Virus record (IMG/VR): IMGVR_UViG_3300037882_001471
Location: 1 to 52,713 of that record
Direction: 5' to 3' (one strand)
DNA from: a virus
Taxonomy: Duplodnaviria > Caudoviricetes
DNA: 52,713 nt
The notes under the pieces were generated by a model. It did no database searches and was not told where the DNA came from. It worked only from the letters and a program-made list of their open reading frames with translations. Of this stretch, positions 2,307 to 50,482 are shown piece after piece. The position numbers and the translations under genes are program-made. Each line of letters starts with the position of its first letter. Position 1 is the stretch's first letter.

Positions 2307-2503
2307 TCCGGCTTCCTTACAGTTGGGCAGCTTGCCGGCGGCATGGGCGGTGTCTGATCTAGCACTACTTCATATCCGTAATGTTTCAGAATATCGACAG
2401 CAAGGCCGACAAGCCAGCCGCGCACCATTGACGTGCGCCCGGTCGCAATGAGCAGGTTGATAGCTTTTACGGCTTCTTGGTATCGTTGATCTTCGATTGC
2501 CAT
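2303..2503 (-). CDS. hypothetical protein
   Basis: 66 aa ORF closing the leftward operon. Confidence 0.5.
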   Translation of the reverse strand: MAIEDQRYQEAVKAINLLIATGRTSMVRGWLVGLAVDILKHYGYEVVLDQTPPMPPASCPTVRKPD

Positions 2504-3036
2504 GCCATCGTCTTTCCTTTTTGGATTGATTCGTGAATTGCGTTCACCTGGAAACGCGCGTCATCGAGCGCGTTGTGATACACGCCGACGCGCGGCATCG
2601 TTGTAATATCCACGTCAAATAAATCGTAGATCGTGCGTGTATCGCGCACCATGCGGAAGCGCCACGGCACTTCGAGATCGCACAGCTTGAAAGCGTGTTC
2701 GAGAATCGGCGCATCGAATGTAGCGCCTTGACACCAGATGCGATCCACCTGTTGATTCCTGCACCAGACTTGGAAATCGCCCATTACATGCTTGATCTGA
2801 TGTGTAACGCCTAATAGCGCTGCCTTCGCTTCTTCATCCTGCTCACGCCACCACTTGAGCGTTTCCGGCTCGATATTCAGGCCAAGTAAAAGCTGCGATG
2901 CAATATCGATCTTCCGCTCGAAGGTATATTGTTCCGCGTGCGGATTGAAAGGATCGAAAGTTACTGCACCGATCGATAAGATTACGCAGCCAGGTTTCTG
3001 ACCAAGCGTTTCGGTGTCTGCCATCATGTGTGTCAT
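2467..3036 (-). CDS. DEDDh 3'-5' exonuclease (RNase T/exoVIII-like)
   Basis: MADTETLG, GATFDAPIL, RDTRT, HNALDDA motifs. Confidence 0.88.
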   Translation of the reverse strand: MTHMMADTETLGQKPGCVILSIGAVTFDPFNPHAEQYTFERKIDIASQLLLGLNIEPETLKWWREQDEEAKAALLGVTHQIKHVMGDFQVWCRNQQVDRIWCQGATFDAPILEHAFKLCDLEVPWRFRMVRDTRTIYDLFDVDITTMPRVGVYHNALDDARFQVNAIHESIQKGKTMAWQSKINDTKKP

Positions 3037-9420: not shown

Positions 9421-9693
9421 TTGATGAAAAAAATCCTCATCAAAAAAGCGAAACAGAATTGCATCGTTGTTTTTGAGACAGCAACGGGCCGTGCTGCGAT
9501 CATTGCTTCCGATGTCGGCAATGTGCGTGATCCTGCATGGCGACCGATCGGCCATATTTGCGTTGCTGTTCCACCAGCGATTTACAATGAAAGCATTAAA
9601 GATGGTCATGATCCGCACAAGCTGGTGATCGATTATGCGCGCCTGAGATTCGAATCGCATCTCGCTAAAATGTTTGGGAGCATCGCAGCATGA
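9421..9693 (+). CDS. hypothetical protein
   Basis: RBS GAGG; ATGA-coupled to next gene. Confidence 0.55.
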   Translation: MMKKILIKKAKQNCIVVFETATGRAAIIASDVGNVRDPAWRPIGHICVAVPPAIYNESIKDGHDPHKLVIDYARLRFESHLAKMFGSIAA

Positions 9694-14174: not shown

Positions 14175-14419
14175 TTGAAAACGATGACAGGATATTGCGT
14201 GTCTGACATGACGCTCTCTTGGGTTGTAGTGGTGATGACTTCCAGTTTCTTACCTTCATTGTCACATGCACGCGCTGCCGCCGTTGCGACATCACCGCCC
14301 ATAAGTTGAAAGCCTTTGATCGTGCGAATATCACTGTTCGGGCCTGGTGCTTGCGCTACGCGCTGGCCGCAGGCCGTTAGTGTGATGGTACAGCAGAGAA
14401 TTGCGAGAATGGTTTTCAT
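14159..14419 (-). CDS. putative lipoprotein
   Basis: MKTILAILCCTITLTAC: lipoprotein signal peptide with LTAC lipobox. Confidence 0.7.
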   Translation of the reverse strand: MKTILAILCCTITLTACGQRVAQAPGPNSDIRTIKGFQLMGGDVATAAARACDNEGKKLEVITTTTQESVMSDTQYPVIVFKCVKP

Positions 14420-14462
14420 GGTTTATTTTCCTTTCGTGGTTGGTGTGAGTGTGATGGTAGAG

Positions 14463-14975
14463 CTATTGTTTCTGGTATAGCCCTTTGCGCACCCTGACCA
14501 TTCTGTTCTTCACGGTCAGTTGAGCGAGGGCATTATTTACCGCTCCTTCTGATACATCATGCCCTTTTTCTTTCAGTTCTTCCCATAGCTGGAACACTGC
14601 ACGGCTTTTACCATCGCTCATGCATTCTTCCACTATGTGAGTCACCGAGGCGCGCTGTATTGTAATTTTTTTGCTGCCGCCTTCCTTGAGAATGGACAGA
14701 ATTTCGTCCAGCTTCGCCATGATTGCGCTGTTGCTGATCGATTCCGATGGTGGAGTAACGGATAGGGGGGGGGGGGTTTCTACTGCCGATGGCGCTTCAC
14801 CGTTGACTAGGCTGTATTTACCCCGGCTGATCTTCTTCACCACGTTTTTGTTGGCGAGTGCGATCAGCCCTTGCTTGACAGCGCTGTAAGTTTTTTCCGA
14901 GAGAGTTTCCAAATCAGGAATGGAATATATTTTTCCATCCTGCATGATTTCCCTGAGTTTATCTTGTGTGGACAT
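14463..14975 (-). CDS. tandem winged-HTH DNA-binding protein with poly-C linker tract
   Basis: Two similar units (AVKQGLIALANKNVVKKISRGKYSL / AVNNALAQLTVKNRMVRVRKGLYQ); G12 run at 14765-14776. Confidence 0.7.
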   Translation of the reverse strand: MSTQDKLREIMQDGKIYSIPDLETLSEKTYSAVKQGLIALANKNVVKKISRGKYSLVNGEAPSAVETPPPLSVTPPSESISNSAIMAKLDEILSILKEGGSKKITIQRASVTHIVEECMSDGKSRAVFQLWEELKEKGHDVSEGAVNNALAQLTVKNRMVRVRKGLYQKQ

Positions 14976-15017
14976 TTCGATTTGCTCCTTATTGGTGTTA
15001 GTGTGATGGTACAGCTA

Positions 15018-15389
15018 TCAGGCAATCATCTTGTCGAAAATATCGACAGACTTTTCCATGATGTCGTTCACGGCGGTCACATACTGTTTCCGCGTGATTT
15101 GTTCCCCTAGATGATGGGGATAGGTGTGATATTTTGAATTGATCTCAATCACACCGTTCTTATCGCGCTGCACACGCAGGCAAACCACCATGCCCATCGA
15201 GTCCACGCGCAGCACGCGGAAATAGATGTACCAGTAGTCTTTCGCCGTTTTCGGCAGGCTGTAGTTGTTACGATAACGGAAATACTTGCCGACGAATTTT
15301 TTAGCTTCCGCCTGCTTTTCTTTATTTCGTGCTTCATAAAGCGCGCTGTTTATCTTTCGCGCCTCTGCTTCGAGTTTCTTGAGTGACAT
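15018..15389 (-). CDS. hypothetical protein
   Basis: AAGGAGCAA RBS; flanked by 15-bp repeats. Confidence 0.7.
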   Translation of the reverse strand: MSLKKLEAEARKINSALYEARNKEKQAEAKKFVGKYFRYRNNYSLPKTAKDYWYIYFRVLRVDSMGMVVCLRVQRDKNGVIEINSKYHTYPHHLGEQITRKQYVTAVNDIMEKSVDIFDKMIA

Positions 15390-15427
15390 AGGTTGCTCCT
15401 TTTGCCGGTGTAGGTGTGATGGTACAG

Positions 15428-15766
15428 CTAGATTTCCTTCGTCCAGCCTTGGTAGCTGTGCAGGGAAACCAGTTCACCCTCCTTGCCGTTCTTCAGCAGA
15501 TTGATGCCTTTTGCATCATAGCTCTGATTGTAGGATGAATAGACTTCCACCACGCGCACGCGCCGCACCCGGCCAATGCGTCTATCTGGCGCGCTCACGA
15601 GAATGTCACCAGGTGCGAAGCCTGCATAGATAGGGCCAAGCTCACGCCGGATAGCGCGCTCATCTTCCATCAGCGGCGCTAATTCCTGCCGGTGGCGATC
15701 CTTCATTGCGCTAAGTTCCGCGCGTTTCGTCTTCAGTTTTTCTTCCAGTTCAGTTGCAGTGCTCAT
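15428..15766 (-). CDS. hypothetical protein (coiled coil + small beta domain)
   Basis: AAGGAGCAA RBS; flanked by 15-bp repeats. Confidence 0.7.
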   Translation of the reverse strand: MSTATELEEKLKTKRAELSAMKDRHRQELAPLMEDERAIRRELGPIYAGFAPGDILVSAPDRRIGRVRRVRVVEVYSSYNQSYDAKGINLLKNGKEGELVSLHSYQGWTKEI

Positions 15767-15975
15767 TTTATTTTGCTCCTTTGGTTGGTCGTGAGTGTGA
15801 TGGTACAGCAGTGCCGGCGGTGTAGGTGTAATAGTACAGCGGGTGTGAGTGTGATGGTACAGCGGGGAATCGCTTTTCAGCCCGCCCCGAAAACGCGCTT
15901 TTCGTAACCCATTGATTTATCAGGGGTAAAAACTGACCCCCTTTTAATCGCCCGGAAACGGCCTTTTTAAGCGTG

Positions 15976-17260: not shown

Positions 17261-17681
17261 GGATTTTCCCGTCATCACCGATATATAAATCTATATTATC
17301 GAATGCCGTGCGAAAGCCGCAAGCCTCTGTTAGTTTTTCGCCTGCCTCACCTAAACCCCTATCCCAAAATCCCGCGCCATGCCCGCAACGGGTAAGCCAA
17401 AAATCATGGCCCGCCTGCGAGGGGGTATAATCCTGCAATCCCTCGCGCGTTTTGTGTTGCATGGAATATGCAGTTTTAAGCAGTGCGGAATATTGCACCT
17501 GGAATTTCTGACAATCTGCAATCATCTTACCTAGCGTTTCCGGCGCAATGTCTTCTATGCAGTGATTGTCATCTAGGTTTACGTCTTCACCGTTCACCGT
17601 ATCAGTTGATGACCATAGCGCGCATTCCATATAAGCGCGCGTGAATTCGTCCACCTTGTAAGGATCAATAATATTTTGCAT
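17253..17681 (-). CDS. conserved phage early protein of unknown function
   Basis: FTRAYMECALWSS and AGHDFWLTRCGHGAGFWDR motifs recurrent in phage early regions. Confidence 0.7.
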   Translation of the reverse strand: MQNIIDPYKVDEFTRAYMECALWSSTDTVNGEDVNLDDNHCIEDIAPETLGKMIADCQKFQVQYSALLKTAYSMQHKTREGLQDYTPSQAGHDFWLTRCGHGAGFWDRGLGEAGEKLTEACGFRTAFDNIDLYIGDDGKIHA

Positions 17682-17693
17682 CGTTTTAGCTCC

Positions 17694-18545
17694 TTATGCT
17701 GCTTGCGTGTTGTCATCAATGCCCGCGCCGTCTGCAAATGCCGCCCACAGGTGCGCGCGCCATGCGTTGCGGGGATTGCGCAGGTGTTCATAATCATCCC
17801 ATAATTCCGCAGCGTGCTTTTTAGCCTTGCCGATAATCCGCAAATGCGCTTTGACTTGCTCGCGTAACGCATTGCAGATAACAGGCGCGGCCCCGCGTGC
17901 GCGTTCCTTTTTGATTGCGCTGATAAGTTCCAGGCAGGCGCGGCGCGTTTCTTTTATTCCCTGCAATTCTTCAGCGTAATCACTGCCTGCGCGCCACGCT
18001 TCATTATATTCCCTTTCTTCTTCAGCCTGCTTTTCTGCAATGCTATCGGCATGGCGTGCAACTTCGCGTGCTGTTTTATCGTAACTTGCGCCTTCAGCCG
18101 CGCCGCCTTTTTCACCTTCATAAATTGTATTCAGGTAAAGACGCGCGCCGCCTGTATCGTCAAAGTTTTCTGAATCGATGTAACCAGCGATATATTGCGG
18201 CTTGCCTTTGCGCGCTGGCAATTGATAGACAACCCCGCGCAATTTCGCGCCCGTGCCGTCATCATCAGTAAACCAGCCTGTATGATCGATGCCATACGCA
18301 TAGTTATAATTGCGCGTTGCTACCTCATCAGCATAACCGACAAAGCGCAATCCTGTTGCCGCGTGCTCTATCCACCGCGCGCCGTCTTTTCCTGCTTGGT
18401 TATATTCGATATTTGCGCGCATGTTTGGAATATTCCACCATTCCACGCCAGCGGCAAAACGGTTTTGCGCCTGTATATATGCCGCCTGCGCAGTTGCGCC
18501 ATTGGCACGAATACGCTTGTATAATTCTGAGATAGTGCTTTGCAT
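17694..18545 (-). CDS. hypothetical early protein
   Basis: 283 aa, RBS present, IDHTGWFTDD motif. Confidence 0.7.
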   Translation of the reverse strand: MQSTISELYKRIRANGATAQAAYIQAQNRFAAGVEWWNIPNMRANIEYNQAGKDGARWIEHAATGLRFVGYADEVATRNYNYAYGIDHTGWFTDDDGTGAKLRGVVYQLPARKGKPQYIAGYIDSENFDDTGGARLYLNTIYEGEKGGAAEGASYDKTAREVARHADSIAEKQAEEEREYNEAWRAGSDYAEELQGIKETRRACLELISAIKKERARGAAPVICNALREQVKAHLRIIGKAKKHAAELWDDYEHLRNPRNAWRAHLWAAFADGAGIDDNTQAA

Positions 18546-18575: not shown

Positions 18576-19070
18576 TTAGTAGATTGTTACAGCGCCGCCG
18601 GATTGCCAGCTTCCCGCGCTGTAATCGAATTTCTGCCCGGTTTTACTGACAACGCGGTAAATAGGAATATAGTTTGCGTTACCGTGCCGCCCAAAATCAT
18701 CAAAGCCGATAAGCTCAAAACGATCAAAGTTTTCCGGCTTGATATATTCCGCGTCAAATTGACTAAGCGGCGCGTTTTTGCGTGTTGCGCCTTTTGGAGT
18801 CCATTGCTTAGAGCGGAGAAAAGCTAAACCTTTTTCAATCTGCTTTTCGTCGGCAATAAGCGGAGGGTTTTTTTCGATACGCTCTAAAATCTCGCACAAT
18901 TCCGGGCCTGTCATTTTGCTTGACGTGCTGCTAGTGGAAAGATTTTGCACGCGCCTGGAATCAGCATTAAGCGCTTTGCGCAAGCCTCTTATGCGGCCCT
19001 CGCTGATTTTACCCGTTTTCAATTCCGCAAGCGCGGCAAGATAAGGGCGGGAGTGTTTTACTTTTTGCAT
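18576..19070 (-). CDS. hypothetical early protein
   Basis: AAGGAG RBS, own promoter. Confidence 0.7.
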   Translation of the reverse strand: MQKVKHSRPYLAALAELKTGKISEGRIRGLRKALNADSRRVQNLSTSSTSSKMTGPELCEILERIEKNPPLIADEKQIEKGLAFLRSKQWTPKGATRKNAPLSQFDAEYIKPENFDRFELIGFDDFGRHGNANYIPIYRVVSKTGQKFDYSAGSWQSGGAVTIY

Positions 19071-19105
19071 CGTTTTAGCTCCTTTGTTGCATCGTTAGTA
19101 TTGAT

Positions 19106-19159
19106 AATCTAGCAAGTGTAATTACACATTGCAAGCCTTATTTTTACATTCCGTAAAAA
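19106..19159 (-). promoter_or_regulatory. leftward promoter with upstream operator
   Basis: Minus strand TTGCAA-17-TAGATT; TTTTTAC-ATTCC-GTAAAAA at 19141-19159. Confidence 0.6.
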
Positions 19160-20428: not shown

Positions 20429-20458
20429 TGTCTTTTGCTCCTTTGTTAGTGTTGTTAG

Positions 20459-20494: not shown

Positions 20495-20677
20495 CTACAT
20501 TGTTGCGGAATAAATCCAACCAAGAGTTAGAATTAACCAACCGCTAATAAATGCAGCGCGTGAAAATTTCGGGTTTGAAACAACACGCTTTACACCTTGA
20601 ATCATGGCGGCGATTACAAACCAGCTTACAACCGCGTAAAGCGTCATAGCTGCTACCATATAAAATGTATTATGCAT
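20495..20677 (-). CDS. small two-TM membrane protein
   Basis: Two hydrophobic stretches; start overlapping upstream stop. Confidence 0.55.
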   Translation of the reverse strand: MHNTFYMVAAMTLYAVVSWFVIAAMIQGVKRVVSNPKFSRAAFISGWLILTLGWIYSATM

Positions 20678-20939
20678 TTTCTGCCCAATCGCTAGACTTG
20701 TCATACTCTGCAAAATCTTCAGGGCATTTATCACCCTCATTGACCGGCCCGAATCCTACACACAGCCCGCCGAATCCCGGCGCGTTGTCTGCATCCTGTA
20801 CTATGCCAACGTCACCGCGCTTTGCCGCTATTGCCTGCGCTGCTTTATTTGCAGCGTCTTCCAACATCGTTACAATGTCGGTCAACTCTTGCGCGCTCGC
20901 TTCTTCCGCAAGTTGGTTTATGTTTAAAAAATGTGCCAT
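20670..20939 (-). CDS. acidic hypothetical protein
   Basis: AAAGGAGCAACTAA RBS. Confidence 0.65.
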   Translation of the reverse strand: MAHFLNINQLAEEASAQELTDIVTMLEDAANKAAQAIAAKRGDVGIVQDADNAPGFGGLCVGFGPVNEGDKCPEDFAEYDKSSDWAENA

Positions 20940-20953
20940 GTTAGTTGCTCCTT

Positions 20954-21172
20954 TTACTGGTTAGAAAATTCAGGTAATTTACGCGCCGCCTCTTGTCCAC
21001 AAGCGCCGCATTTTTGTTCACTTCCAACTTTATAGGTGAAGTGTGGAGCGCCGTTAAAAACATGCCCGCATTCGAGTATGCAGATAACCCCATCAGAACG
21101 ATGATCCGCGCTTGTGATTTTACGTTGCGGGCGCATACCGCTGGCAACATAATTAAATCGTGCGTTGTTCAT
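20954..21172 (-). CDS. small Zn-ribbon protein
   Basis: LECGH...KCGAC. Confidence 0.55.
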   Translation of the reverse strand: MNNARFNYVASGMRPQRKITSADHRSDGVICILECGHVFNGAPHFTYKVGSEQKCGACGQEAARKLPEFSNQ

Positions 21173-21269: not shown

Positions 21270-21521
21270 TCATAAACTCATAACCTTTGTTACAGTGTTA
21301 AAAACGCCGCCTTGATGCCCGTGCATATCATCGGCAAAAATCTGATTGCCGTTGCTTTCCTTCCACTGCGTCAAGAGCGCTATGTAATCCGCCTTTACGA
21401 TTTTCACACATCCACCAGCGCCGCCAGGAATAGGGCATACAATTTCTTTTGCCATGCGCGCCAGTTTTATCGCTTCTTTAATTGTCTCCGGCGCTAGAGA
21501 ATGTTCACCAACATTTTGCAT
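21270..21521 (-). CDS. hypothetical early protein
   Basis: AAGGAG RBS, own promoter. Confidence 0.65.
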   Translation of the reverse strand: MQNVGEHSLAPETIKEAIKLARMAKEIVCPIPGGAGGCVKIVKADYIALLTQWKESNGNQIFADDMHGHQGGVFNTVTKVMSL

Positions 21522-21561
21522 CGTTTTAGCTCCTTTTGGGGTTGATCTATCTTACATATGA

Positions 21562-24277: not shown

Positions 24278-24889
24278 ATGACGGAGCAACTAACCACACC
24301 TACAAAGGCATATGATCTGCTTGAGCATTACGAACGCCAAGCGGTTGATGACTATGTAAATTATGCCATAAACCAGCAGTATCATCGCCGGCAGCGTATC
24401 GCGCTCGCGCTCTATGTTCCCATCCCGTCCGAACTGGTACGGCGCTCCAAAGGCGTGCTGGCAAAGCCGCTGGCGCGCGCTGCGGTGGCTGAAAAGCTGA
24501 CCGATGCGGCGAACGAACAAGACCTTTCCCCTGACCGAGTGATTCACGAGCACGCGGTGATCGGTTTCAGCAATATTGCCGATTATTTACAGATCGGCAC
24601 GTTTGGGGATTTCTCAATTAAAAATCTTGACAGCATCCCGCGTCATTTACTCGCGGCGGTGAAGTCGATGAAAACCATTCCGTCACCTTATGGGTTACGC
24701 ACGGAGATCACACTGCACGACAAGCATCCTTCCTTGAAGGTTCTCACCGAACTGATGGGCCTTGTCGCGCCTGACCGCCCCCCGGCGCTGGCGGATTATT
24801 CCAAGCCGCCGGAACAGGATCAAATCGGAGAAGGAGCACCCGAAACCGCATATGCCGCACTACTCGAATCTTCGCAGATGCGGCAATGA
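24278..24889 (+). CDS. terS: terminase small subunit
   Basis: RVIHEHAVIGFSNIADY...EITLHDKHPSLKVL pattern; directly upstream of TerL. Confidence 0.75.
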   Translation: MTEQLTTPTKAYDLLEHYERQAVDDYVNYAINQQYHRRQRIALALYVPIPSELVRRSKGVLAKPLARAAVAEKLTDAANEQDLSPDRVIHEHAVIGFSNIADYLQIGTFGDFSIKNLDSIPRHLLAAVKSMKTIPSPYGLRTEITLHDKHPSLKVLTELMGLVAPDRPPALADYSKPPEQDQIGEGAPETAYAALLESSQMRQ

Positions 24890-26710: not shown

Positions 26711-28204
26711 ATGGCCGCTGAAGTCCATCCGTTGCTGGTTCGCGCTAAAGATGTAGCCTCGATGGTTCCGTATTGGGATCAGGTAGAGGCGATCGTAGAG
26801 GGTTATGAAGCCGTGAAATCGGCAGGCAAAACCTATCTTCCCATGTTCCCCGATGAAACCGTAACCGATTACGGTTTCCGCCTTGAATGCACAAAATTCA
26901 CGAACATTTATCGTGACGTGCTTGAAGGTCTTGCCACCAAACCTTTTGAGGAAGAAATCACGCTCATTGCAGGCGCGGGTTCCGGCAAAGATGGCAAAGG
27001 TGAAGTCGATCCTGAAGCAGCAGCGTTCGCAGAAGATGTGGACGGCGCGGGAAATAATCTCAGCATGTTCGCGGCGCTGACTTTCTTCAGCGGCATCAAT
27101 GAAGCGATTAACTGGATTTTTGTCGATTATCCTGTTGTCGAATTGCAGCCTGGTCAAGTGATCTCGCAGGCTGAAGCGAAACAGAAAAATCTGAAGCCGT
27201 TCTGGTCGCATGTGCTCGCGCGCAATGTGTATGAAGTTCGCACGAAAATTATCGGCGCGAAAGAACTGCTCACCTACATTCGCATCTTCGAACCGGCAAG
27301 CGACACGATAACAAAAGATCGCGTGCGCGTGTTCCAACGCAGCGATGATGGTGTTGTGACATGGGAGCTTTTCGAGAAGAATGAGGAAGCGAAGGAAATC
27401 GAAAATCAGATGGTCAGGATCGGCGGCGGCACTCTGAGCATCGACGTGATTCCGTTCGTGCCGTTCATCACCGGTCGCCGGGATGGGCGCACTTTTAAAT
27501 TCTCACCTGTCATGCGCGATGCTGCGGATTTGCAGATGACGCTTTACAAAAACGAATCGGCGCTGGAATTCATCAAGGTCATGGCGGGCTATCCGATGCT
27601 CGCTGCGAACGGAATGAAGCCGCAGATGGGGCCGGATGGTAAAACGCCTCTCAAGCTCGCCATTGGCCCGATGCGCGTGTTATACGGTGTGCCTGATGGG
27701 GCGGGCAACAGCGGATCGTGGAGCTTCATCGAGCCGAATGCAAATTCGATGGAATTCCTGCAAAAGAACATCGACAAAACCAAGCAGGATTTGCGTGAAC
27801 TCGGTCGCCAGCCGCTTACCGCGCTGTCGAGCCAGCTTACCACCGTGACCACTTCCATTGCCGCCGGTAAAGCCCGCAGTGCTGTGACTGCATGGGCGCT
27901 GGCGCTCAAGGATGCGCTGGAAAATGCGCTCAAGATCACGATGAAATACATGAACAGCGTGGTAGAGCCGGAAGTGAATGTTTACACCGGATTCGACAAC
28001 GTGACCGATGACGGCAGCGATCTCGAAGCGCTCGCCACGGCACGCGAGAATGGCGACATCTCGCAGGAAACTTATCTGTTCGAATTGAAGCGGCGCAAGG
28101 TTCTTTCGCCGGAATTCAATTACGAAGCGGAGAAAAAACGCTTGCTCAACGACATTCCCGCCGGGGGTGAAGAAGACGAGCCAAAGAATCCAGGCGATGC
28201 ATAA
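26711..28204 (+). CDS. portal protein (DUF4055-like)
   Basis: AGKTYLP...Y..RL, VIPFVPF, GDISQETYLFELKRRKVL; follows TerL. Confidence 0.88.
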   Translation: MAAEVHPLLVRAKDVASMVPYWDQVEAIVEGYEAVKSAGKTYLPMFPDETVTDYGFRLECTKFTNIYRDVLEGLATKPFEEEITLIAGAGSGKDGKGEVDPEAAAFAEDVDGAGNNLSMFAALTFFSGINEAINWIFVDYPVVELQPGQVISQAEAKQKNLKPFWSHVLARNVYEVRTKIIGAKELLTYIRIFEPASDTITKDRVRVFQRSDDGVVTWELFEKNEEAKEIENQMVRIGGGTLSIDVIPFVPFITGRRDGRTFKFSPVMRDAADLQMTLYKNESALEFIKVMAGYPMLAANGMKPQMGPDGKTPLKLAIGPMRVLYGVPDGAGNSGSWSFIEPNANSMEFLQKNIDKTKQDLRELGRQPLTALSSQLTTVTTSIAAGKARSAVTAWALALKDALENALKITMKYMNSVVEPEVNVYTGFDNVTDDGSDLEALATARENGDISQETYLFELKRRKVLSPEFNYEAEKKRLLNDIPAGGEEDEPKNPGDA

Positions 28205-28234
28205 ACCTGATTCACACACTAGGAGATTAGTATC

Positions 28235-29050
28235 ATGAAAAGACTTTTTACTACGGTGAGCTTCCTCGCGTTTTTGAGCGCTCACGATAACGGCACGCCC
28301 GGTTGGAAACTGGACGCTGAAGGCAAGATCGTACTGAAAGACGGCAACCCTGTTTACATCAACGCCAGCGGTCAGGAGCAGACTGTTGGAGGCGATACCA
28401 TCAGCAATCTCAATAAAGAATCGAAGGCTCATCGTGAGCGCGCGGAGGCGGCGGAAGCAAAGCTGAAACCGTTCGAAGGTATCGATGTCGAAGCCGCCAA
28501 GAAAGCGCTCGAAACCGTGAAGAATATCGATGCCAAAAAACTCATCGATGCAGGTGAAGTCGAAAAGGTGAAAGACCAGATCAAAAAAGAATTCACCACG
28601 CAACTCGAAGAAAAAGACAAGACCACTCAAACTCTGCAACAGCGTATCGATAACATGCTTGTGGACGGTATTTTCTCGAACTCCACTTTCGTTCGTGACA
28701 ACATCGCCGTGCCGCAGGATATGTTTCAGGCTGCGTTCCGCAATAACTTCAAAATCGAAGACGGCAAGATCATAACTTACGATAAATCGGGCAATCGCCT
28801 GATGAGCAAGCAGCGTGCCGGTGAATATGCTGATCCTGAAGAAGCTCTGCAACTGCTTGTGGAGATGCACCCGCAGAAGGAAACCATTCTGAAAGCCAAT
28901 CCCGGTAGCGGCACTGGCAATCAGGGCGGTGGCGGCAACCGTGGCACGGGCCGTGTCATGAAACGTGCTGAATTCGAGAAGCTGCCCCCCGCTGGTCAGG
29001 CAGATATTTCGGGCAAAGTTTCGAAGGGTGAAATGCAGCTTGTTGACTGA
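28235..29050 (+). CDS. capsid scaffolding protein (DUF6651-like)
   Basis: KLDAEGKIVLKDGNPVY, KLIDAGEVEKVK, GEYADPEEAL, M.RAEFEKL; between portal and capsid. Confidence 0.85.
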   Translation: MKRLFTTVSFLAFLSAHDNGTPGWKLDAEGKIVLKDGNPVYINASGQEQTVGGDTISNLNKESKAHRERAEAAEAKLKPFEGIDVEAAKKALETVKNIDAKKLIDAGEVEKVKDQIKKEFTTQLEEKDKTTQTLQQRIDNMLVDGIFSNSTFVRDNIAVPQDMFQAAFRNNFKIEDGKIITYDKSGNRLMSKQRAGEYADPEEALQLLVEMHPQKETILKANPGSGTGNQGGGGNRGTGRVMKRAEFEKLPPAGQADISGKVSKGEMQLVD

Positions 29051-29062
29051 TTCTAAAGCCAG

Positions 29063-29091
29063 TTGACGAATTGCTCTGACTATCGTATAGT
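29063..29091 (+). promoter_or_regulatory. sigma70-like promoter for major capsid gene
   Basis: TTGACG-17-TATAGT. Confidence 0.75.
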
Positions 29092-29100
29092 TACACTGCA

Positions 29101-29140
29101 TCGTTTTGGATGAAACGAAGCGCTTAGGTTGGATGACCTT
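29101..29140 (+). promoter_or_regulatory. twin TGGATG-loop hairpins in capsid mRNA leader
   Basis: TCGTTT-TGGATG-AAACGA and AGGT-TGGATG-ACCT. Confidence 0.65.
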
Positions 29141-29218
29141 ACAATTTTTGGTTAAACAATTGGCGCTTCGTTTCTTCTATTCATGGAAGTTGCGCCGCTA
29201 AACAAGAGGTGTACTTTT

Positions 29219-30439
29219 ATGAATAAGACTGCAAAGAAGAAGAAAGTTGCGACTTTCAATATTCTGTCGGGAGCATACGCCTCGGCAAATACCCTCACCG
29301 GACTGATCCCCGATCTCTACGCTGGCCTCGAAGTGGTTTCGCGTGAACTCGTGGGCTTCATTCCCTCCGTAACACGCAATGCGAACGCAGAACGCGCGGC
29401 TCTGGATGAGTATGTCACTTATCCGATCGCTCCGCTGCCGACCGCCTTCAACGTGACTCCGGCGATGGCAATCCCTGAACCCACCGATCAGACAATCGGC
29501 TACGGTCAGATGCGCATCACCAAATCACGCGGTGTGAACTTCGGCTACATCGGTGAAGAACAGAAGGGTCTGAATAACGGCCCCGGCTACATGAGTGTGA
29601 TGGCGCAACAGTTTGCGCAGGCACTTCGTGTTCTCACCAACGAAATCGAAGTCGATCTGGCAACCGAAGCTGCTGCCAATGCCTGCCGCGCTTACGGCGC
29701 TTCCGGCACGACTCCGTTCGCAACCAACGTGGGTGAATCCGCGCAGATTCGTAAGATTCTCGATGACAATGGCGCGCCGCCTTCTGGCCGCTCGCTGATC
29801 ATCGATACGACTGCCGGTGCAAACCTCCGCACGCTCGCTCAGTTGACGAAAGCCAACGAAGCCGGCACGACCATGACTCTGCGCCAAGGCGAAATCCTTG
29901 ACCTGAATGGTCTGTCGATCAAGGAATCGGCTGGCATCGTGCGTCCCGCAGTCGGTACGAACAACGGTTCGGCCTCTACCAACAACGCTGGTTACGCTGT
30001 TGGCTCCACCACGTTCACGCTGGCTTCGGCTGGTACTGGTACGATCGTAGCGGGTGATTACATCACCTTCGCGGGCGATACCAATAAGTACCTGGTCGTA
30101 ACCGGTGATGCTGACGTGTCTGGTGGTGGTACGATCGTGATTGCCGCACCTGGCATCAAGATCGCTATCCCGGCCTCCAACACCGTGATCACGACCGTTG
30201 CGATCACCACCCGCAACATCGCCTTCAGCCAGGATGCTCTGCACCTGGTGGCACGCGCCCCGGCGCTGCCGCAGGAAGGTGATGCCGCGATCGATCGCTT
30301 CACTCTGACTGATCCGCGTAGCGGCCTGGTATTCGAGGTGTCTCTGTACCCCGGCTACCGCAAAATCCGCGCCGAAGTAACGATGGCGTGGGGTGTGAAG
30401 GCCACGAAGCGTCAACATATCGCCGCGCTACTCGGTTAA
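29219..30439 (+). CDS. major capsid protein (P22 coat-like, HK97 fold)
   Basis: ANTLTGLIPDLYAGLEVVSRELVGFIP, RKILDDNGAP, TDPRSGLVFEV, AWGVKA; RBS AAGAGG before ATG 29219. Confidence 0.9.
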   Translation: MNKTAKKKKVATFNILSGAYASANTLTGLIPDLYAGLEVVSRELVGFIPSVTRNANAERAALDEYVTYPIAPLPTAFNVTPAMAIPEPTDQTIGYGQMRITKSRGVNFGYIGEEQKGLNNGPGYMSVMAQQFAQALRVLTNEIEVDLATEAAANACRAYGASGTTPFATNVGESAQIRKILDDNGAPPSGRSLIIDTTAGANLRTLAQLTKANEAGTTMTLRQGEILDLNGLSIKESAGIVRPAVGTNNGSASTNNAGYAVGSTTFTLASAGTGTIVAGDYITFAGDTNKYLVVTGDADVSGGGTIVIAAPGIKIAIPASNTVITTVAITTRNIAFSQDALHLVARAPALPQEGDAAIDRFTLTDPRSGLVFEVSLYPGYRKIRAEVTMAWGVKATKRQHIAALLG

Positions 30440-30500
30440 TCTCCTAGTGTGTGACGATGGTTCCCCTACGGTTAGTTGCTCCTTTCCGTGGGGGAATTTC
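30434..30500 (+). ncRNA. capsid 3'-UTR hairpin/terminator carrying anti-RBS sequences (candidate sRNA)
   Basis: 11-bp stem 30461-30471/30486-30496, loop ttagttgctccttt, short U tail; 30437-30454 is the reverse complement of 28212-28229. Confidence 0.55.
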
Positions 30501-30515
30501 TAAGAGAGGTAGGCC

Positions 30516-31040
30516 ATGAATAAGAATACCATTCGCGTTGAACGCGGCACGATAATGAAACTGACCGCCGCTGCTGCGGCTACGGTATGGCTTCTCAAAG
30601 CTGGTCAGCAAGAAACCCTGCACGCAAGTCTAGCTGCCGGTGAAGAACTGTTCTTAGGGCCGTATTTCAACACTGTCGAATTCAGTGCTGTATCGGAACT
30701 CCCTGTGACCGTTGCGAATCAAGCCGAAGATTTCGATGCGCCGGTAGGCATCTTCGATTACATTCCGCCTCGCAATGTCACGCGCCCGGTTGTTTCCGGC
30801 ACGACCGAAACCGGTGAAGACCTTTCCGTAACCAACGGCGTATGGCTCGGCAATGCTACCATCACTTTCGCTTATCAGTGGAATCGTGACGGTGTTGCAA
30901 TTACCGACGCTGATGAAGCGACTTACGAACTGGTTGAAGATGACGAGGACGCTGACATTACCTGCACTGTCACCGCGACGAATTCTCTTGGCTCCACCAG
31001 TGCTTTGAGTAATGAAGTAGGCCCGATTACCGCGCCGTAA
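30516..31040 (+). CDS. Ig-like domain head decoration protein
   Basis: C-terminal PVVSGT..GEDL...G.W....FAYQWNRDG...ITCTVTATNS. Confidence 0.7.
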   Translation: MNKNTIRVERGTIMKLTAAAAATVWLLKAGQQETLHASLAAGEELFLGPYFNTVEFSAVSELPVTVANQAEDFDAPVGIFDYIPPRNVTRPVVSGTTETGEDLSVTNGVWLGNATITFAYQWNRDGVAITDADEATYELVEDDEDADITCTVTATNSLGSTSALSNEVGPITAP

Positions 31041-31115
31041 TAATAATTTGACGGTTCGGTAAAAAGGTTATAATCTGCGATCACTACTTTTCGCAACCAA
31101 ACCAAGGAGAATTTT

Positions 31116-35060: not shown

Positions 35061-35098
35061 GGATCGGATGATCTGACGTGCTAAGGTTGGATGACCTT
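35061..35098 (+). promoter_or_regulatory. twin YGGATG-loop hairpins in tail-tube mRNA leader
   Basis: GGAT-CGGATG-ATCT and AAGGT-TGGATG-ACCTT. Confidence 0.65.
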
Positions 35099-35934: not shown

Positions 35935-35966
35935 TCGATAACTGAAGGCAAAAGGAGCAAACCAAA

Positions 35967-46645: not shown

Positions 46646-47151
46646 GCCGTCCCTTCTGGCTGAACACTGCTATCAATTATCTCGGCACAGAAGAAATACC
46701 GGGCAGGGAAAACAACCCCATCATTCTCGACTGGTGGAAGAAGATCAAGCAGGGCGGCATCAAGGATGATGAAACTGCCTGGTGTGCTGCATTCGTCGGC
46801 GGCGTGCTCGAAGAACGCGGTATAACGTCCTCTCGCAGCGCCGGGGCGCGCTCTTACCAGAATTGGGGTGTCAAGATCGCTGGCCCCGCTGTCGGCGCTG
46901 TCGTTACGTTCTGGCGCGACGATCCGAAGGGCTGGAAGGGTCATGTTGGCTTTGTGGTCGGCAAGGATCAGTTGGGCAACCTGATGGTGCTTGGCGGGAA
47001 TCAGCAGGACGGCGTAAATATCAAACCGTTTGCCACTGCAAGGGTTTTAGCATACTGTTGGCCTAAGTCGATGGAACTACCGAAAGAATTGGGCATAAAA
47101 CTTTTGCCACTCGTGCGGTCGGACGGTCGGCTTTCAACGAACGAGGCTTAG
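46642..47151 (+). CDS. endolysin, TIGR02594 / CHAP-NlpC family
   Basis: DDETAWCAAFV, ARSY..WG, GHVGFVVG, VLGGNQ. Confidence 0.85.
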   Translation: MSRPFWLNTAINYLGTEEIPGRENNPIILDWWKKIKQGGIKDDETAWCAAFVGGVLEERGITSSRSAGARSYQNWGVKIAGPAVGAVVTFWRDDPKGWKGHVGFVVGKDQLGNLMVLGGNQQDGVNIKPFATARVLAYCWPKSMELPKELGIKLLPLVRSDGRLSTNEA

Positions 47152-47956: not shown

Positions 47957-48172
47957 ATGAGTGCCATTTTATTCGCGTTGAATGCCTTCAACATGGTCAA
48001 AGCCGCTGTCGGTGCTGGCATGGCTGTAAAGGAAGTTTACGACATGATCGACAGAACCAATACGCAACTTCAGACCTTCGAGGACGAGCAGCGTGCGCCT
48101 ACCGATGCTGAATGGGAAGCGCTCAACGCTGAATCTGAACGGGTTCGCGCTCTGCGCCCCAGCGTCGATTAA
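47957..48172 (+). CDS. hypothetical lysis-cassette protein
   Basis: AGGAG RBS; R.PT.AEW..L motif. Confidence 0.6.
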   Translation: MSAILFALNAFNMVKAAVGAGMAVKEVYDMIDRTNTQLQTFEDEQRAPTDAEWEALNAESERVRALRPSVD

Positions 48173-48459
48173 TTCCTGACCTTACCACCAAAGCCCGTTT
48201 TGCGGATTCCAGGCCGTCTTCCCGGCTTGCTCTGCGGAACGGGCTTTTCAGGTGCTTCTTCCACCACCGGAGCGATGCTGGTAAGCTGGCTCTCGTTGAT
48301 CCAGTCTTCGTTGATATTCTTGCCGGGGATCGCGGTATCGCTGCGAACATAATAGCGCGGCTCTCTACCATTGAAGAATTCGGTGCGGCCTAAAATAATT
48401 ACAGGATGGCCGTTTTTAGCGATCCACACCTGCTGATTGCCTTCGTACTGAAATCGCAT
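48169..48459 (-). CDS. hypothetical protein
   Basis: AGGAG RBS before ATG 48459 (MRFQYEG). Confidence 0.65.
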   Translation of the reverse strand: MRFQYEGNQQVWIAKNGHPVIILGRTEFFNGREPRYYVRSDTAIPGKNINEDWINESQLTSIAPVVEEAPEKPVPQSKPGRRPGIRKTGFGGKVRN

Positions 48460-48469
48460 GGTTAATCTC

Positions 48470-50482
48470 CTAGATGACGAGTTTTGCAGCTTCCTGAATA
48501 TACCAAGCATAGTTGATATTGTCAAAACGGAAGTCTTTGACATGATTACAGATCGTGACCAGATACCCGGCTTGGATCGCGCTCTCCCGTGATTCGTACT
48601 TGCTCTTGTTTTTCGTGCATACCCGCTCATCCCACGCGCCGCCGGTTTCCTTCATGACGCGATCGTATTCCATGTCGCTGACACCGTTCGCCTTCTTAAA
48701 TGCCCCGATTTGCCCCAGCGCGGGCGCGTGGCGCGTCATTGGATGCCCGTTGGTGCTGACATAGTACCGAGTGCCGCGCCGCTGCTGTGGTACGCCATTG
48801 TGAAGTAGGGTATCGCCTGCGCGCACTTTGATCCCCAGCATGAAGTCGTAGGGGTTCGTACACATGCGGATAAACTGCTCGATGTCGCAGCCGTGGATCA
48901 TATGCGCCACTGCCGCGCGCACGCTGATCGGGTTCGACAAGTCTTTATGCCATGCCGGAGGTTGAGAATTACTGATCGAACCAGCATAATCGAGCGGATC
49001 AGGTGTCCAGTATGCGCCTTTGAGCTTCAGCCCGTCCTTACCCTCTGCGATGTACGAATTCACGTCCCGCAGCCACATGCGGCTGTAATTCACATCTTCC
49101 AGCGTGAGCTTGGTCAGCGCTTCCCATTCTTTGCACAGCGCCGCTGCGAGCGGTTCGTAAACGTGGTTGATATAATAGGTGATGCCGTCCGTATTTATCT
49201 GCAAAATTTGCAGTGTCGGCACGGTCATCAGGCGTTCTGCCAACATGCAAAGTAATAGCTGCCCGTTGACGGTGATCGTCATGGTGAATTGCGGATCATA
49301 GAATGGGCTGTAGGCGCTATTGCTCTTGCCGTACACACCGTTCGCGGCCAGCTTGAGCGCATTGGCCTCTGCACATTTCTTCCCCTTTTCCTGCTGCCAT
49401 TTTTTGCGTTCTTTAGGCAGTTCGGAATAAACCTGCACGAATGCGCTGCCGAGGTGCGCCGGGGCTAGGTTGTTTTTGATAGCGATCGACGGGTAAAGGC
49501 TTGCCACGTCGATGTCGCGGATCAGCCATTCGCCGGTTGCTTCCACGCGGCGGCGCTCTAAGCTCCCGTGAATGCCGCCAACACCGAAATAGAAATCGAT
49601 GCCGCCCACATGCGCTTTTAAATCCTGAAATACGCCTTTGGTTTTGATGTAATTATCGTCAGCGAATTCATCGATCTTCAGGACTTGCGCTTTGAGATAA
49701 TTCAGGACGTGCTGAAATTCAGGGCGCTGGAACTGGACGTATGGAAAAATAATGTCATTCAGCGCAATCTGCGTGCGCGGTGTCTGACGCATTGTTTTGC
49801 GCCCGCTGCTGTAGTCGTAGCATATTTCATCACCGATGCGCTTGATAACGGTCATTTCACCGATCTTGGTGTCATTCCAGTTCATCACTTCCACGCCGAA
49901 CTGCGGGATCAGCGAAGCGCGGAAATTGATCGCGTCCATGCTGTGCAGCGCAAAGCGTTTCGTTTCTTTCACGTCATGCAAATTGTAAGGAACGATCAGC
50001 GTATCGATTTGCTCTTTGGTGAGCATCGTGCCGTGCTCGATAGGCATATCTTCAACTGAATCGGTTCGCATGTTCATCTGAAGATATTTCAGGCTGGTGG
50101 ATTTTGCCTTGTTATCGAAGTGGAAAATCTTGAACAGATCGATCTGCGGTATGAAGCGTTTATCAGCCCAAATGATCTGACCGAAGCGCCCGTGACTGTT
50201 GAAAATCTCCTGCGATTTTGCATATAGCTGTTCGACCGTGGCGTGCGGATATTCCAATAGGAAATGCAGCACGATATAATCGAAGCCGAGATTGTTGAAA
50301 CCGATCATCGGAATCTGATAGCGCGACAGGTGTTGCAGGAATTCAAATAACTGCGCGCGATCGTCGCGGAAGTGCGAGATTTCCCACACTGCACGCCAAT
50401 CGCCGTTTAGCGCTTCCGCTGCTAAGGTAAAGCAGTTTGGGAATGTTTCTTCGTCATAGCAAACTGCATCGGTAAGGTTCAT
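48470..50482 (-). CDS. DNA polymerase, family B, with 3'-5' exonuclease
   Basis: YDEETF (ExoI), GFNNLGFD, DIDVASLYPS, LKLAANGVYGK, QINTDGI; start ATGA-coupled at 50482. Confidence 0.93.
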   Translation of the reverse strand: MNLTDAVCYDEETFPNCFTLAAEALNGDWRAVWEISHFRDDRAQLFEFLQHLSRYQIPMIGFNNLGFDYIVLHFLLEYPHATVEQLYAKSQEIFNSHGRFGQIIWADKRFIPQIDLFKIFHFDNKAKSTSLKYLQMNMRTDSVEDMPIEHGTMLTKEQIDTLIVPYNLHDVKETKRFALHSMDAINFRASLIPQFGVEVMNWNDTKIGEMTVIKRIGDEICYDYSSGRKTMRQTPRTQIALNDIIFPYVQFQRPEFQHVLNYLKAQVLKIDEFADDNYIKTKGVFQDLKAHVGGIDFYFGVGGIHGSLERRRVEATGEWLIRDIDVASLYPSIAIKNNLAPAHLGSAFVQVYSELPKERKKWQQEKGKKCAEANALKLAANGVYGKSNSAYSPFYDPQFTMTITVNGQLLLCMLAERLMTVPTLQILQINTDGITYYINHVYEPLAAALCKEWEALTKLTLEDVNYSRMWLRDVNSYIAEGKDGLKLKGAYWTPDPLDYAGSISNSQPPAWHKDLSNPISVRAAVAHMIHGCDIEQFIRMCTNPYDFMLGIKVRAGDTLLHNGVPQQRRGTRYYVSTNGHPMTRHAPALGQIGAFKKANGVSDMEYDRVMKETGGAWDERVCTKNKSKYESRESAIQAGYLVTICNHVKDFRFDNINYAWYIQEAAKLVI

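What the first reader, a model, noticed from the sequence alone, without database searches (positions are those of the whole stretch)
30434..30500. Major capsid 3' UTR looks like a multi-target anti-RBS small RNA
Seen: 30437-30454 (TAATCTCCTAGTGTGTGA, beginning at the capsid stop codon) is the perfect 18-nt reverse complement of 28212-28229, which covers the Shine-Dalgarno of the scaffolding gene. 30434-30447 is identical to 48460-48473, so it is also antisense (14 nt) to the RBS of minus-strand gene 48169..48459. The adjacent 11-bp hairpin has an unusually long loop, TTAGTTGCTCCTTT (30472-30485). This loop is identical to 20941-20954, i.e. antisense to the whole RBS of early gene 20670..20939. 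It also has 9-11 nt matches to the RBSs at 14982, 15392, 15773, 20435 and to the tail-chaperone RBS (35951-35960). Inference: the most abundant late mRNA, or a processed 3' fragment of it, base-pairs to these RBSs to set scaffold:capsid stoichiometry and shut off early genes. Caveat: part of each match is generic AAGGAG complementarity, but three matches extend well beyond it.
Basis: partly seen in the sequence, partly recalled or inferred. Interest (0 to 1): 0.87.

Follow-up and report, generated by a model that had tools for sequence, protein, structure and literature searches.

The report
Conserved anti-RBS element ending capsid mRNA
The end of this phage's capsid message carries a strongly conserved stretch of RNA that is the mirror image of the ribosome landing site of the neighbouring scaffold gene, so it probably pairs with that site and holds down scaffold production, though no experiment has yet shown this.

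Summary
The segment 30434-30500 has 4 places with at least 13 nt of exact match elsewhere in the window. None of 2000 shuffles gave more than 2.

The window is a 98%-complete uncultivated siphovirus with a P22-type coat gene. The segment is the 3' end of a capsid transcription unit that has its own conserved promoter and leader.

The element occurs in 4 diverged lineages: WIN, L004/L005, L136 and L123. Capsid identity between them is 63-75% aa and 4-fold sites are only 25-46% identical. The non-coding element is 55/57 identical between WIN and L005, and its first 17 nt are invariant in all of them.

In each lineage it keeps 15-18 contiguous Watson-Crick pairs with that lineage's own scaffold RBS. 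The hairpin stem shows compensatory changes, and the loop keeps an anti-SD core.

Weak points:
- There is no convincing two-sided covariation in the intermolecular helix.
- The reverse complement of the element is a generic RBS cassette used by unrelated phages.
- The 15-nt early-gene match of the loop is not conserved.
- There are no expression data.

Verdict: this is a real, selected RNA element. RBS masking of the scaffold gene is the best reading (about 0.5). Global early-gene shut-off is speculative. It is a new variant of known 3'UTR/anti-SD regulation.

The parts
28212..28231 (+). Scaffold gene translation initiation region, the proposed target. SD AGGAG is at 28221-28225 and the start codon at 28235. 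There are 18 Watson-Crick pairs plus 2 G-U pairs with 30435-30454.
   Evidence: (I19)
28235..29050 (+). Head scaffolding protein gene
   Evidence: phrog_784 1.7e-80; phrog_206 head scaffolding 1.1e-24; DUF6651
29063..29091 (+). Sigma-70-like promoter of the capsid gene (TTGACG, 17 nt, TATAGT). The -35 and -10 elements are kept in all four element-bearing lineages.
29097..29218 (+). Conserved structured capsid leader. It has a long stem, 29108-29123 with 29164-29178. Its first ~11 nt are antisense to the spacer plus start-codon cassette of four early genes.
29219..30439 (+). Major capsid gene (P22 coat family). The stop codon TAA is at 30437-30439.
30434..30454 (+). Module A: an inverted RBS cassette that overlaps the last Gly codon and the stop codon. 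Its first 17 nt are invariant in all five sequences.
30459..30498 (+). Hairpin of 13 pairs. Two of the pairs show compensatory changes among lineages. It is followed by a weak U-tract in the window.
30472..30485 (+). Module B: the 14-nt hairpin loop. The core TGCTCC is invariant. It is complementary to the phage's commonest RBS type, AAAGGAGCAA.
48460..48473 (-). RBS of gene 48169-48459, with 14 nt complementary to module A. The orthologue in G001 keeps 13 nt.
20940..20954 (-). RBS of early gene 20670-20939, with 15 nt complementary to the loop. There is no orthologue in G001.
15392..15402 (-). RBS of early gene 15018-15389, with 11 nt complementary to the loop. The RBSs at 15773-15782, 20435-20444, 14982-14990 (minus strand) and 35951-35960 (plus strand) belong to the same class, at 9-10 nt.

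Best explanation
The segment is the 3' end of the capsid messenger RNA. It is a conserved RNA element with two parts.

1. A single-stranded stretch begins in the last capsid codons and runs 15 nt past the stop codon (module A).
2. A 13-bp hairpin follows, and its 14-nt loop is module B.

Both modules are exact reverse complements of ribosome-binding-site cassettes that the phage uses.

Most likely mechanism (inferred). Module A pairs with the Shine-Dalgarno region of the scaffold gene, forming 18 Watson-Crick plus 2 G-U pairs in the window. This hides the site from ribosomes and lowers scaffold synthesis relative to capsid synthesis. The duplex may also mark the site for cleavage of double-stranded RNA. 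Pairing could occur in cis on read-through portal-scaffold-capsid transcripts. It could also occur in trans from the abundant capsid mRNA made from the capsid gene's own promoter. Because module A lies within the footprint of a ribosome terminating at the capsid stop codon, pairing should be sensitive to capsid translation.

The hairpin ends or stabilises the RNA and displays a second anti-SD sequence. That sequence can touch the commonest RBS type of the phage.

Shown: the sequence, its conservation, the complementarity, the hairpin covariation and the predicted energies. Inferred: that the RNAs pair in vivo, the direction of the effect, and whether it acts in cis or in trans.
For: (1) Purifying selection. 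The non-coding part is 55/57 identical between WIN and L005, while 4-fold sites of the adjacent capsid gene are 87/190 identical (binomial P 1.4e-16). Against L136 it is 41/61 versus 52/173 (P 2e-9). Sliding identity peaks at 0.95 in the element, against about 0.6-0.85 in flanking CDS, and drops to about 0.5 right after it.

(2) Kept complementarity. The longest Watson-Crick run with the lineage's own scaffold RBS is 18 (WIN), 17 (L005, L004) and 15 (L136, L123). The RBS flanks differ between lineages. The run extends upstream of the SD in WIN and L005, and into the spacer and the A of the ATG in L136 and L123. Among 56 unique loci with both a scaffold start and a capsid end, only these 5 exceed 10 nt.

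(3) Energetics. Cofolding gains -23.2, -23.6, -18.4 and -20.8 kcal/mol with the hairpin kept. The MFE of the whole scaffold-capsid RNA contains the long-range helix in 3 of 4 lineages.

(4) Structure. The hairpin has 13 pairs, 2 of them with compensatory changes, and an invariant loop core.

(5) Rarity of anti-SD on the sense strand. CTCC occurs at 1.85/kb in sense CDS against 3.4/kb expected from composition. This is the only intergenic gap with two CTCC on the sense strand; 4 other gaps, all over 300 nt, have one each. It is the top sense-strand window for at least 12-nt complementarity to candidate start regions in both WIN and G001.

(6) Published work. Distant anti-SD-like sequences pair with the RBS, block initiation, promote decay and are depleted from genes (PMC12697547, abstract). 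A 3'UTR motif pairing with the SD controls icaR and creates an RNase III substrate (PMC3868564, abstract).
Against: - There is no convincing two-sided covariation in the intermolecular helix. The one candidate (28212/30454, T:A to A:T in L005) is separated from the helix by a mismatch.
- Cognate pairing is barely better than non-cognate pairing among the element-bearing lineages.
- The reverse complement of module A is a generic RBS cassette. In 10 of 12 hits of the 17-mer in viral contigs it is a real RBS followed by ATG in unrelated phages. The complementarity could therefore come from descent from a common cassette.
- RBS regions of orthologues are often this well conserved between WIN and G001. 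The scaffold RBS, with a longest common stretch of 16 nt, ties for third of 27.
- The conserved block in L136 and L123 extends 4-5 nt beyond what pairs with their scaffold RBS.
- The element is confined to 5 of 122 unique capsid 3' ends. Most relatives have a plain GC-rich hairpin.
- In L136 an extra insert puts the sites 3.7 kb apart, and the MFE does not contain the helix.
- There are no transcript or expression data.
Confidence: 0.5

Rival explanations
1. The element is an ordinary transcript-end hairpin (partial terminator or 3' stabiliser) next to a relic inverted copy of an RBS cassette. On this reading the conservation reflects some other constraint, such as a protein or RNase site, termination context or attenuation of the downstream gene. 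The complementarity to RBSs has no regulatory role.
For: - Nearly all relatives have a hairpin a few nt after the capsid stop.
- Gene 30516 starts 18 nt behind the hairpin, and the next promoter-like site comes only before gene 31116. The hairpin could therefore set read-through.
- The reverse complement of module A is a generic cassette in unrelated phages.
- There is no covariation in the long-range helix.
Against: - The loop is 14-18 nt with an invariant core, which a terminator does not require.
- The U-tract is absent in L136 and L123.
- Eleven non-coding nt directly after the stop codon are invariant across lineages whose 4-fold sites are saturated.
- A duplex worth about -20 kcal/mol with an RBS is expected to have an effect, given the published long-range anti-SD data.
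Confidence: 0.25
2. A processed or terminated ~65-nt RNA, or the capsid mRNA as a whole, acts in trans on many RBSs. It shuts off early genes as well as the scaffold gene.
For: - The loop is complementary (9-15 nt) to 6 early-gene RBSs and to the tail-chaperone RBS in WIN. In G001 it is complementary (10-11 nt) to 6 RBSs.
- The loop core is invariant.
- The 5' end of the capsid leader is antisense to the start-codon cassette of four early genes in WIN. In G001 it is antisense to the full cassette at two early genes, 13372 and 10943.
Against: - The only long loop match (15 nt) is not conserved, because the gene is absent from G001.
- The remaining matches are the modal RBS AAAGGAGCAA, so they amount to generic anti-SD complementarity.
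- A similar 10-nt anti-cassette match also occurs inside a coding region near 33590.
- The U-tail is weak or absent for an Hfq-type sRNA.
- No RNA data exist.
Confidence: 0.15
3. The long-range duplex is chiefly a processing site. An RNase III-type enzyme cuts the 18-20 bp helix formed by the scaffold leader and the capsid 3' end. This defines the mRNA ends and stabilities rather than blocking ribosomes.
For: - There are 18 Watson-Crick plus 2 G-U contiguous pairs in WIN.
- In icaR the 3'UTR-SD duplex is an RNase III substrate (PMC3868564, abstract).
Against: - The helices are only 15-18 bp in the other lineages, which is short for RNase III (recalled requirement of about two helical turns).
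- Nothing was tested.
Confidence: 0.07
4. The feature works at the DNA level. The inverted repeats flanking the scaffold-capsid module would be recombination linkers or a protein-binding site, or the RBS of an antisense gene.
For: - The element lies at a mosaic junction, where identity to L005 collapses right after it.
- A 297-aa antisense ORF exists in WIN.
Against: - The antisense ORF is closed in L136, L123 and L018, and its ATG lies 22 nt from the SD.
- No relative shows the module inverted.
- Hairpin covariation argues for an RNA or single-strand structure.
Confidence: 0.03

Closest known systems
icaR 3'UTR-5'UTR pairing in Staphylococcus aureus (PMC3868564; abstract and outline read)
   Same: A C/U-rich anti-SD motif in a 3'UTR base-pairs with an SD region. 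It blocks the initiation complex and creates a double-stranded RNase III substrate.
   Different: - Here the RBS belongs to another gene, the upstream scaffold gene, and possibly to other genes, not to the mRNA's own gene.
- The pairing is 15-18 contiguous nt rather than a 7-nt motif.
- The module overlaps the stop codon.
- The setting is a phage structural operon.
- Nothing has been shown experimentally.
Long-range anti-SD-like sequences in bacterial mRNAs (Gill et al. 2025 preprint, PMC12697547; abstract and outline read)
   Same: Anti-SD-like sequences hundreds of nt from an RBS pair with it, inhibit initiation and promote decay. They are depleted from genes.
   Different: That work describes a general constraint in Bacillus subtilis reporters. 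Here an anti-SD sequence is positively conserved, 2.2 kb downstream of the RBS and across an intervening gene.
hly 3'UTR-prsA2 5'UTR mRNA-mRNA interaction in Listeria (PMC8722363; abstract and outline read)
   Same: The 3'UTR of the mRNA for a substrate protein pairs with the 5' region of the mRNA for its chaperone. Capsid and scaffold stand in the same substrate-chaperone relation.
   Different: In Listeria the pairing stabilises the target against RNase J1. Here the pairing covers the SD, and in two lineages also the start codon, so repression is expected.
3'UTR-derived trans-acting small RNAs and C-rich hairpin-loop seeds that bind SD regions (recalled general knowledge; a phage-related example, CisR, seen only in the listing, PMC13250501)
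   Same: A conserved seed next to or within a terminal hairpin at an mRNA 3' end, complementary to RBSs.
   Different: - No evidence of a separate small RNA.
- The U-tract is weak or absent.
- Any chaperone dependence is unknown.
Long-distance RBS masking coupled to translation in RNA phage MS2; 3'-end-RBS pairing in T7 gene 1.1/1.2 mRNA relieved by RNase III; post-transcriptional autoregulation of the P22 scaffolding protein (all recalled; none was found in the held library)
   Same: - Phage precedents for long-range RBS occlusion that is sensitive to translation or processing.
- A precedent for scaffold synthesis being controlled after transcription in a P22-type head module.
   Different: The sequences, partners and genome types differ. 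P22 autoregulation is attributed to the protein, not to an RNA element.

Membership tests
cis-acting 3'UTR anti-SD regulators (icaR type) | Pyrimidine-rich anti-SD motif in the 3'UTR | tested here: met
   CTCC cores at 30442-30445 and 30480-30483. This is the only intergenic gap with two on the sense strand.
cis-acting 3'UTR anti-SD regulators (icaR type) | Extended complementarity to an SD region, conserved among relatives | tested here: met
   15-18 Watson-Crick pairs with the lineage's own scaffold RBS in 5 of 5 element-bearing sequences. There is no two-sided covariation.
cis-acting 3'UTR anti-SD regulators (icaR type) | Target SD and 3'UTR lie on the same mRNA; pairing lowers translation or triggers RNase III | not testable with these tools
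   No RNA run was listed. No terminator was seen between scaffold and capsid by eye. The target is a different gene from the one carrying the 3'UTR.
3'UTR-derived trans-acting sRNA | Intrinsic terminator (GC stem plus U-tract) shared with the parent mRNA | tested here: inconclusive
   The stem is strong. The tail is AAUUUCU in WIN and AAUUUUAUU in L005, and there is no U-run in L136 and L123.
3'UTR-derived trans-acting sRNA | Conserved single-stranded seed | tested here: met
   17 invariant nt in module A and an invariant TGCTCC in the loop.
3'UTR-derived trans-acting sRNA | A discrete stable small RNA exists | not testable with these tools
   No sequencing run was listed.
Canonical Rho-independent terminator | Short loop (3-8 nt) and a U-run directly after the stem | tested here: not met
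   The loop is 14 nt in WIN and L005 and about 18 nt in L136 and L123. A U-run is missing in two lineages. The site is not listed by the terminator scan, whose loop limit is 8.
Any described RNA family (Rfam 15) | Covariance-model match | tested here: not met
   0 matches at gathering threshold in the whole window. 0 matches at E up to 5 in 28150-30560.

The most novel reading that the evidence does not exclude
The capsid mRNA is a bifunctional regulatory mRNA with three anti-start-region seeds.

1. Its 5' end (29097-29107) is antisense to the start-codon cassette of a class of early genes.
2. The stop-codon module is antisense to the scaffold RBS and to RBSs of the same cassette.
3. The hairpin loop is antisense to the modal early-gene RBS.

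Together these would time the early-to-late switch. Because module A sits in the footprint of the terminating ribosome, they would also make scaffold translation depend on ongoing capsid translation. That would be a ribosome-sensed stoichiometry switch in a dsDNA phage head module.
Probability: 0.13. Interest if true: 0.85.

Novelty: new variant of a known kind. Interest (0 to 1): 0.6.

Why it matters
How tailed phages set the ratio of scaffold to coat protein is understood only in outline. For P22 it is known, from recall, as post-transcriptional autoregulation without a defined RNA element.

A conserved RNA duplex linking the capsid message to the scaffold ribosome-binding site would give a concrete and testable mechanism. 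It would be a positively selected example of long-range anti-SD pairing, which recent work otherwise treats as something genes avoid. It would also add a phage case of the mRNA for a substrate regulating the mRNA for its chaperone.

The same transcript carries a conserved structured leader. The capsid unit of this phage clade therefore looks like a compact model for mRNA-embedded regulation.

Tried and rejected
- **Near-identical relatives for covariation.** Megablast against phages found no match. The viral and metagenome protein-guided scans gave nothing closer than 75% and 71% capsid identity. Pattern scans for the 15-mer, the 17-mer, the leader and the L138-type end added no new element-bearing lineage.
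- **Expression data.** No RNA holder and no run was listed.
- **Rfam.** Nothing was found.
- **Pairing with the capsid gene's own RBS.** Rejected by eye, because the needed complement is absent.
- **Pairing with the RBS of downstream gene 30516.** Rejected by eye.
- **Small ORF in the UTR.** An ORF of 20 codons runs from the ATG at 30457 to a TGA overlapping the next start. It is not conserved, because L136 and L123 have no ATG there.
- **Antisense gene using the inverted cassette as a real RBS.** The ORF is closed in L136, L123 and L018.
- **RNAduplex energies on 60 x 82 nt stretches.** They were uninformative, about -35 kcal/mol for any pair.
- **Cultured relative.** Rhizobium phage P106B lacks the element and has a plain terminator.
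- **Careful ML tree.** It did not finish and the script also failed on a row name. The quick tree was used instead.
- **Gene lists.** My crude gene callers miss or mis-start some genes. Counts that depend on gene lists are therefore approximate, and I added an annotation-free scan.
- **Full contigs behind L136, L123 and L138.** They are not held, so loop targets in those genomes could not be examined.
- **Literature.** Searches found no report of a capsid 3'UTR anti-RBS in a phage. This covers only the held library.

Full report
**Observation**

- 30437-30454 is the perfect reverse complement of 28212-28229.
- 30434-30447 equals 48460-48473.
- The loop region 30471-30485 equals 20940-20954. 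This is 15 nt, one more than stated.
- The 9-11 nt matches at 14982, 15392, 15773, 20435 and 35951 are real.

Of the 9 matches of at least 10 nt, 7 sit on an RBS, one on codons 2-6 of the small terminase gene (24283-24295) and one elsewhere.

A uniform model expects 0.021 places of at least 14 nt, and three are seen (P 1.6e-6). None of 2000 dinucleotide shuffles reached 3 places of at least 13 nt, and four are observed. Among real 67-nt windows, 118 of 5265 have at least 3 such places. These are almost all repeat families, so the segment behaves as a member of the phage's family of RBS cassettes, in inverted orientation.

The hairpin has 13 pairs (30459-30471 with 30486-30498) and a 14-nt loop.

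**Context**

The window is a whole virus record of 52,713 bp, estimated 98% complete. It is a siphovirus. Its gene layout is:
- a plus-strand late block: small and large terminase, portal 26711-28204, scaffold 28235-29050, P22-type coat, tail genes and lysis genes;
- minus-strand blocks of small unknown genes and replication genes.

The nearest named phage is Rhizobium phage P106B, at 67% coat identity.

The capsid gene has its own sigma-70-like promoter (29063-29091) and a leader of about 120 nt. The true start is most likely 29219.

**Comparative evidence**

The protein-guided scans gave 598 confirmed relatives in viral contigs and 472 in metagenome contigs. The best 80 loci of each were kept.

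The element occurs in WIN, L004/L005 (one lineage, 75% coat identity), L136 and L123 (65-66%). The same four lineages, and only these, also share the capsid promoter and leader. On a quick capsid tree they form two well-supported pairs inside an unresolved group. A single origin is not excluded.

Four-fold sites of the capsid gene are 25-46% identical between lineages. The non-coding element is 55/57 identical between WIN and L005 and 41/61 between WIN and L136 (P 1.4e-16 and 2e-9). Its first 17 nt are invariant in all five sequences.

Identity to L005 is 0.95 in the element, against about 0.6-0.85 in the neighbouring coding sequence, and falls to about 0.5 directly after it. The hairpin has two pairs with compensatory changes, and the loop core TGCTCC is invariant. 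This is a selected RNA-level element.

**Complementarity to the scaffold RBS**

In each lineage the capsid end pairs with that lineage's own scaffold start region.
- WIN: 18 Watson-Crick plus 2 G-U pairs.
- L004/L005: 17 pairs.
- L136 and L123: 15 pairs.

The RBS flanks differ. In WIN and L005 the helix extends upstream of the SD. In L136 and L123 it extends through the spacer to the A of the ATG, using the last capsid codons.

Of 56 unique loci with both sites, only these five exceed 10 nt. Cofolding gains -18 to -24 kcal/mol with the hairpin intact. The MFE of the full scaffold-capsid RNA contains the helix in 3 of 4 lineages.

Against this:
- The only two-sided change (28212/30454) is cut off from the helix by a mismatch in L005.
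- Cognate pairing is hardly better than non-cognate pairing among these lineages.
- The scaffold RBS is not an outlier in conservation. Its longest common stretch of 16 nt ties for third of 27 orthologue pairs.
- The reverse complement of module A is a generic cassette. In 10 of 12 viral-contig hits of the 17-mer it is a genuine RBS followed by ATG in unrelated phages.

**Multi-target claim**

Module A.
- The RBS of gene 48169-48459 (14 nt) is kept at 13 nt in the G001 orthologue, whose protein is clearly orthologous by local alignment.
- G001 has a further 14-nt match, at the RBS near 47058, whose gene starts at 47050.

The loop.
- The 15-nt match to early gene 20670-20939 is specific to the window. 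G001 has no orthologue.
- The best loop matches in G001 are 10-11 nt to the modal RBS AAAGGAGCAA(C), at 6 sites.
- L136 and L123 could not be examined beyond 6-8 kb.

The segment is the top sense-strand window for at least 12-nt complementarity to candidate start regions in both genomes.

Outside the given coordinates, the first ~11 nt of the capsid leader are antisense to the spacer plus start-codon cassette of four early genes in WIN. In G001 they are antisense to the full cassette at two early genes. A similar 10-nt match also occurs within a coding region near 33590, so I treat this as a lead only.

**Alternatives examined**

- No Rfam family matches.
- An antisense gene using the cassette as its RBS is excluded by stop codons in L136, L123 and L018.
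- A 20-codon ORF in the UTR is not conserved.
- The hairpin fails the short-loop criterion of a canonical terminator in all lineages. It lacks a U-run in two.
- Most relatives (117 of 122 unique ends) have no such element and carry ordinary GC hairpins. One further end (L128) has a different anti-SD-like run at the same place. L138 ends its capsid gene with a near copy (17/18) of the WIN loop sequence.

**Mechanism**

The best-supported reading is RNA-RNA pairing that masks the scaffold SD. It could act in cis on read-through transcripts and/or in trans from abundant capsid mRNA. The hairpin would stabilise or end the RNA and display a second anti-SD loop.

Published work makes a physical effect likely.
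- Distant anti-SD-like sequences pair with RBSs, inhibit initiation and are normally depleted (PMC12697547, abstract). Consistent with this, CTCC is about half as frequent as expected on the sense strand here.
- The icaR 3'UTR does this to its own SD and creates an RNase III substrate (PMC3868564, abstract).
- In Listeria the 3'UTR of a substrate's mRNA pairs with the 5'UTR of its chaperone's mRNA (PMC8722363, abstract).

Module A lies within the footprint of a ribosome terminating at the capsid stop. This suggests a translation-sensitive switch. That step is inference.

**Verdict**

The element is real and under selection. The scaffold-RBS masking model is plausible but unproven (about 0.5). 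Early-gene shut-off by the loop is weakly supported. It is a new variant of a known kind of regulation. I found no report of a capsid 3'UTR anti-RBS in phages in the held library.

Noticed in passing
window 29063-29218: The capsid gene has its own sigma-70-like promoter and a leader of about 120 nt. The leader is almost invariant in the four element-bearing lineages. It forms a long stem (29108-29123 with 29164-29178) with one compensatory pair. No Rfam family matches.
   Followed up: partly
window 29097-29107 versus minus-strand starts at 17681, 19070, 19972, 21521: The first ~11 nt of the predicted capsid transcript are the reverse complement of the spacer plus start-codon cassette shared by four early genes. 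The 10-mer has 6 matches against 0.26 expected. The same relation holds in G001.
   Followed up: partly
window 29108-29140 and 35066-35098: A 33-nt block is shared by the capsid leader and the major-tail leader, both behind promoter-like sites. It holds two GGATGA motifs about 20 nt apart, the second in a small hairpin. The same hairpin, with covarying stems, lies just upstream of the scaffold gene in many relatives, including Rhizobium phage P106B (L211 960-985). It resembles GGA-in-loop protein-binding sites such as CsrA/Rsm targets (recalled, untested).
   Followed up: partly
window 14372-15863: Seven copies of a 23-nt element lie directly upstream of the RBSs of minus-strand early genes, three of them in tandem before gene 15428-15766. 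They are probably early promoters. These genes carry the AAAGGAGCAA-type RBS that the hairpin loop complements.
   Followed up: partly
window 17660-17698, 19049-19087, 21500-21538: Three early genes share a nearly identical RBS plus start cassette of 25-39 nt. A further perfect 21-nt direct repeat lies at 19139 and 21595.
   Followed up: no
window about 31048-31076: A strong sigma-70-like promoter (TTGACG, 17 nt, TATAAT) lies before gene 31116. Gene 30516-31040 (Ig-like, decoration-type PHROG hits) therefore seems to depend on read-through of the capsid hairpin.
   Followed up: no
L138 4707-4730; L128 capsid end: L138 ends its capsid gene with a near copy (17/18) of the window's loop sequence, placed at the stop codon and followed by an ordinary terminator. 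L128 has a different anti-SD-like run directly after the stop. This hints that anti-RBS sequence at the capsid stop recurs in variant forms.
   Followed up: partly
L136 1790-3360: L136 has about 1.4 kb of extra DNA between scaffold and capsid that the other lineages lack. Its content was not examined.
   Followed up: no
window 2467-3036 (minus strand): A gene for an Rv2179c-like 3'-5' exoribonuclease domain protein (Pfam 1.8e-43). It is a phage-encoded RNase that might bear on RNA 3'-end trimming.
   Followed up: no
window 9690-12380: A large gene with many 60-nt-periodic internal repeats (D1-D3). It is the main other source of multi-copy matches in the window.
   Followed up: no
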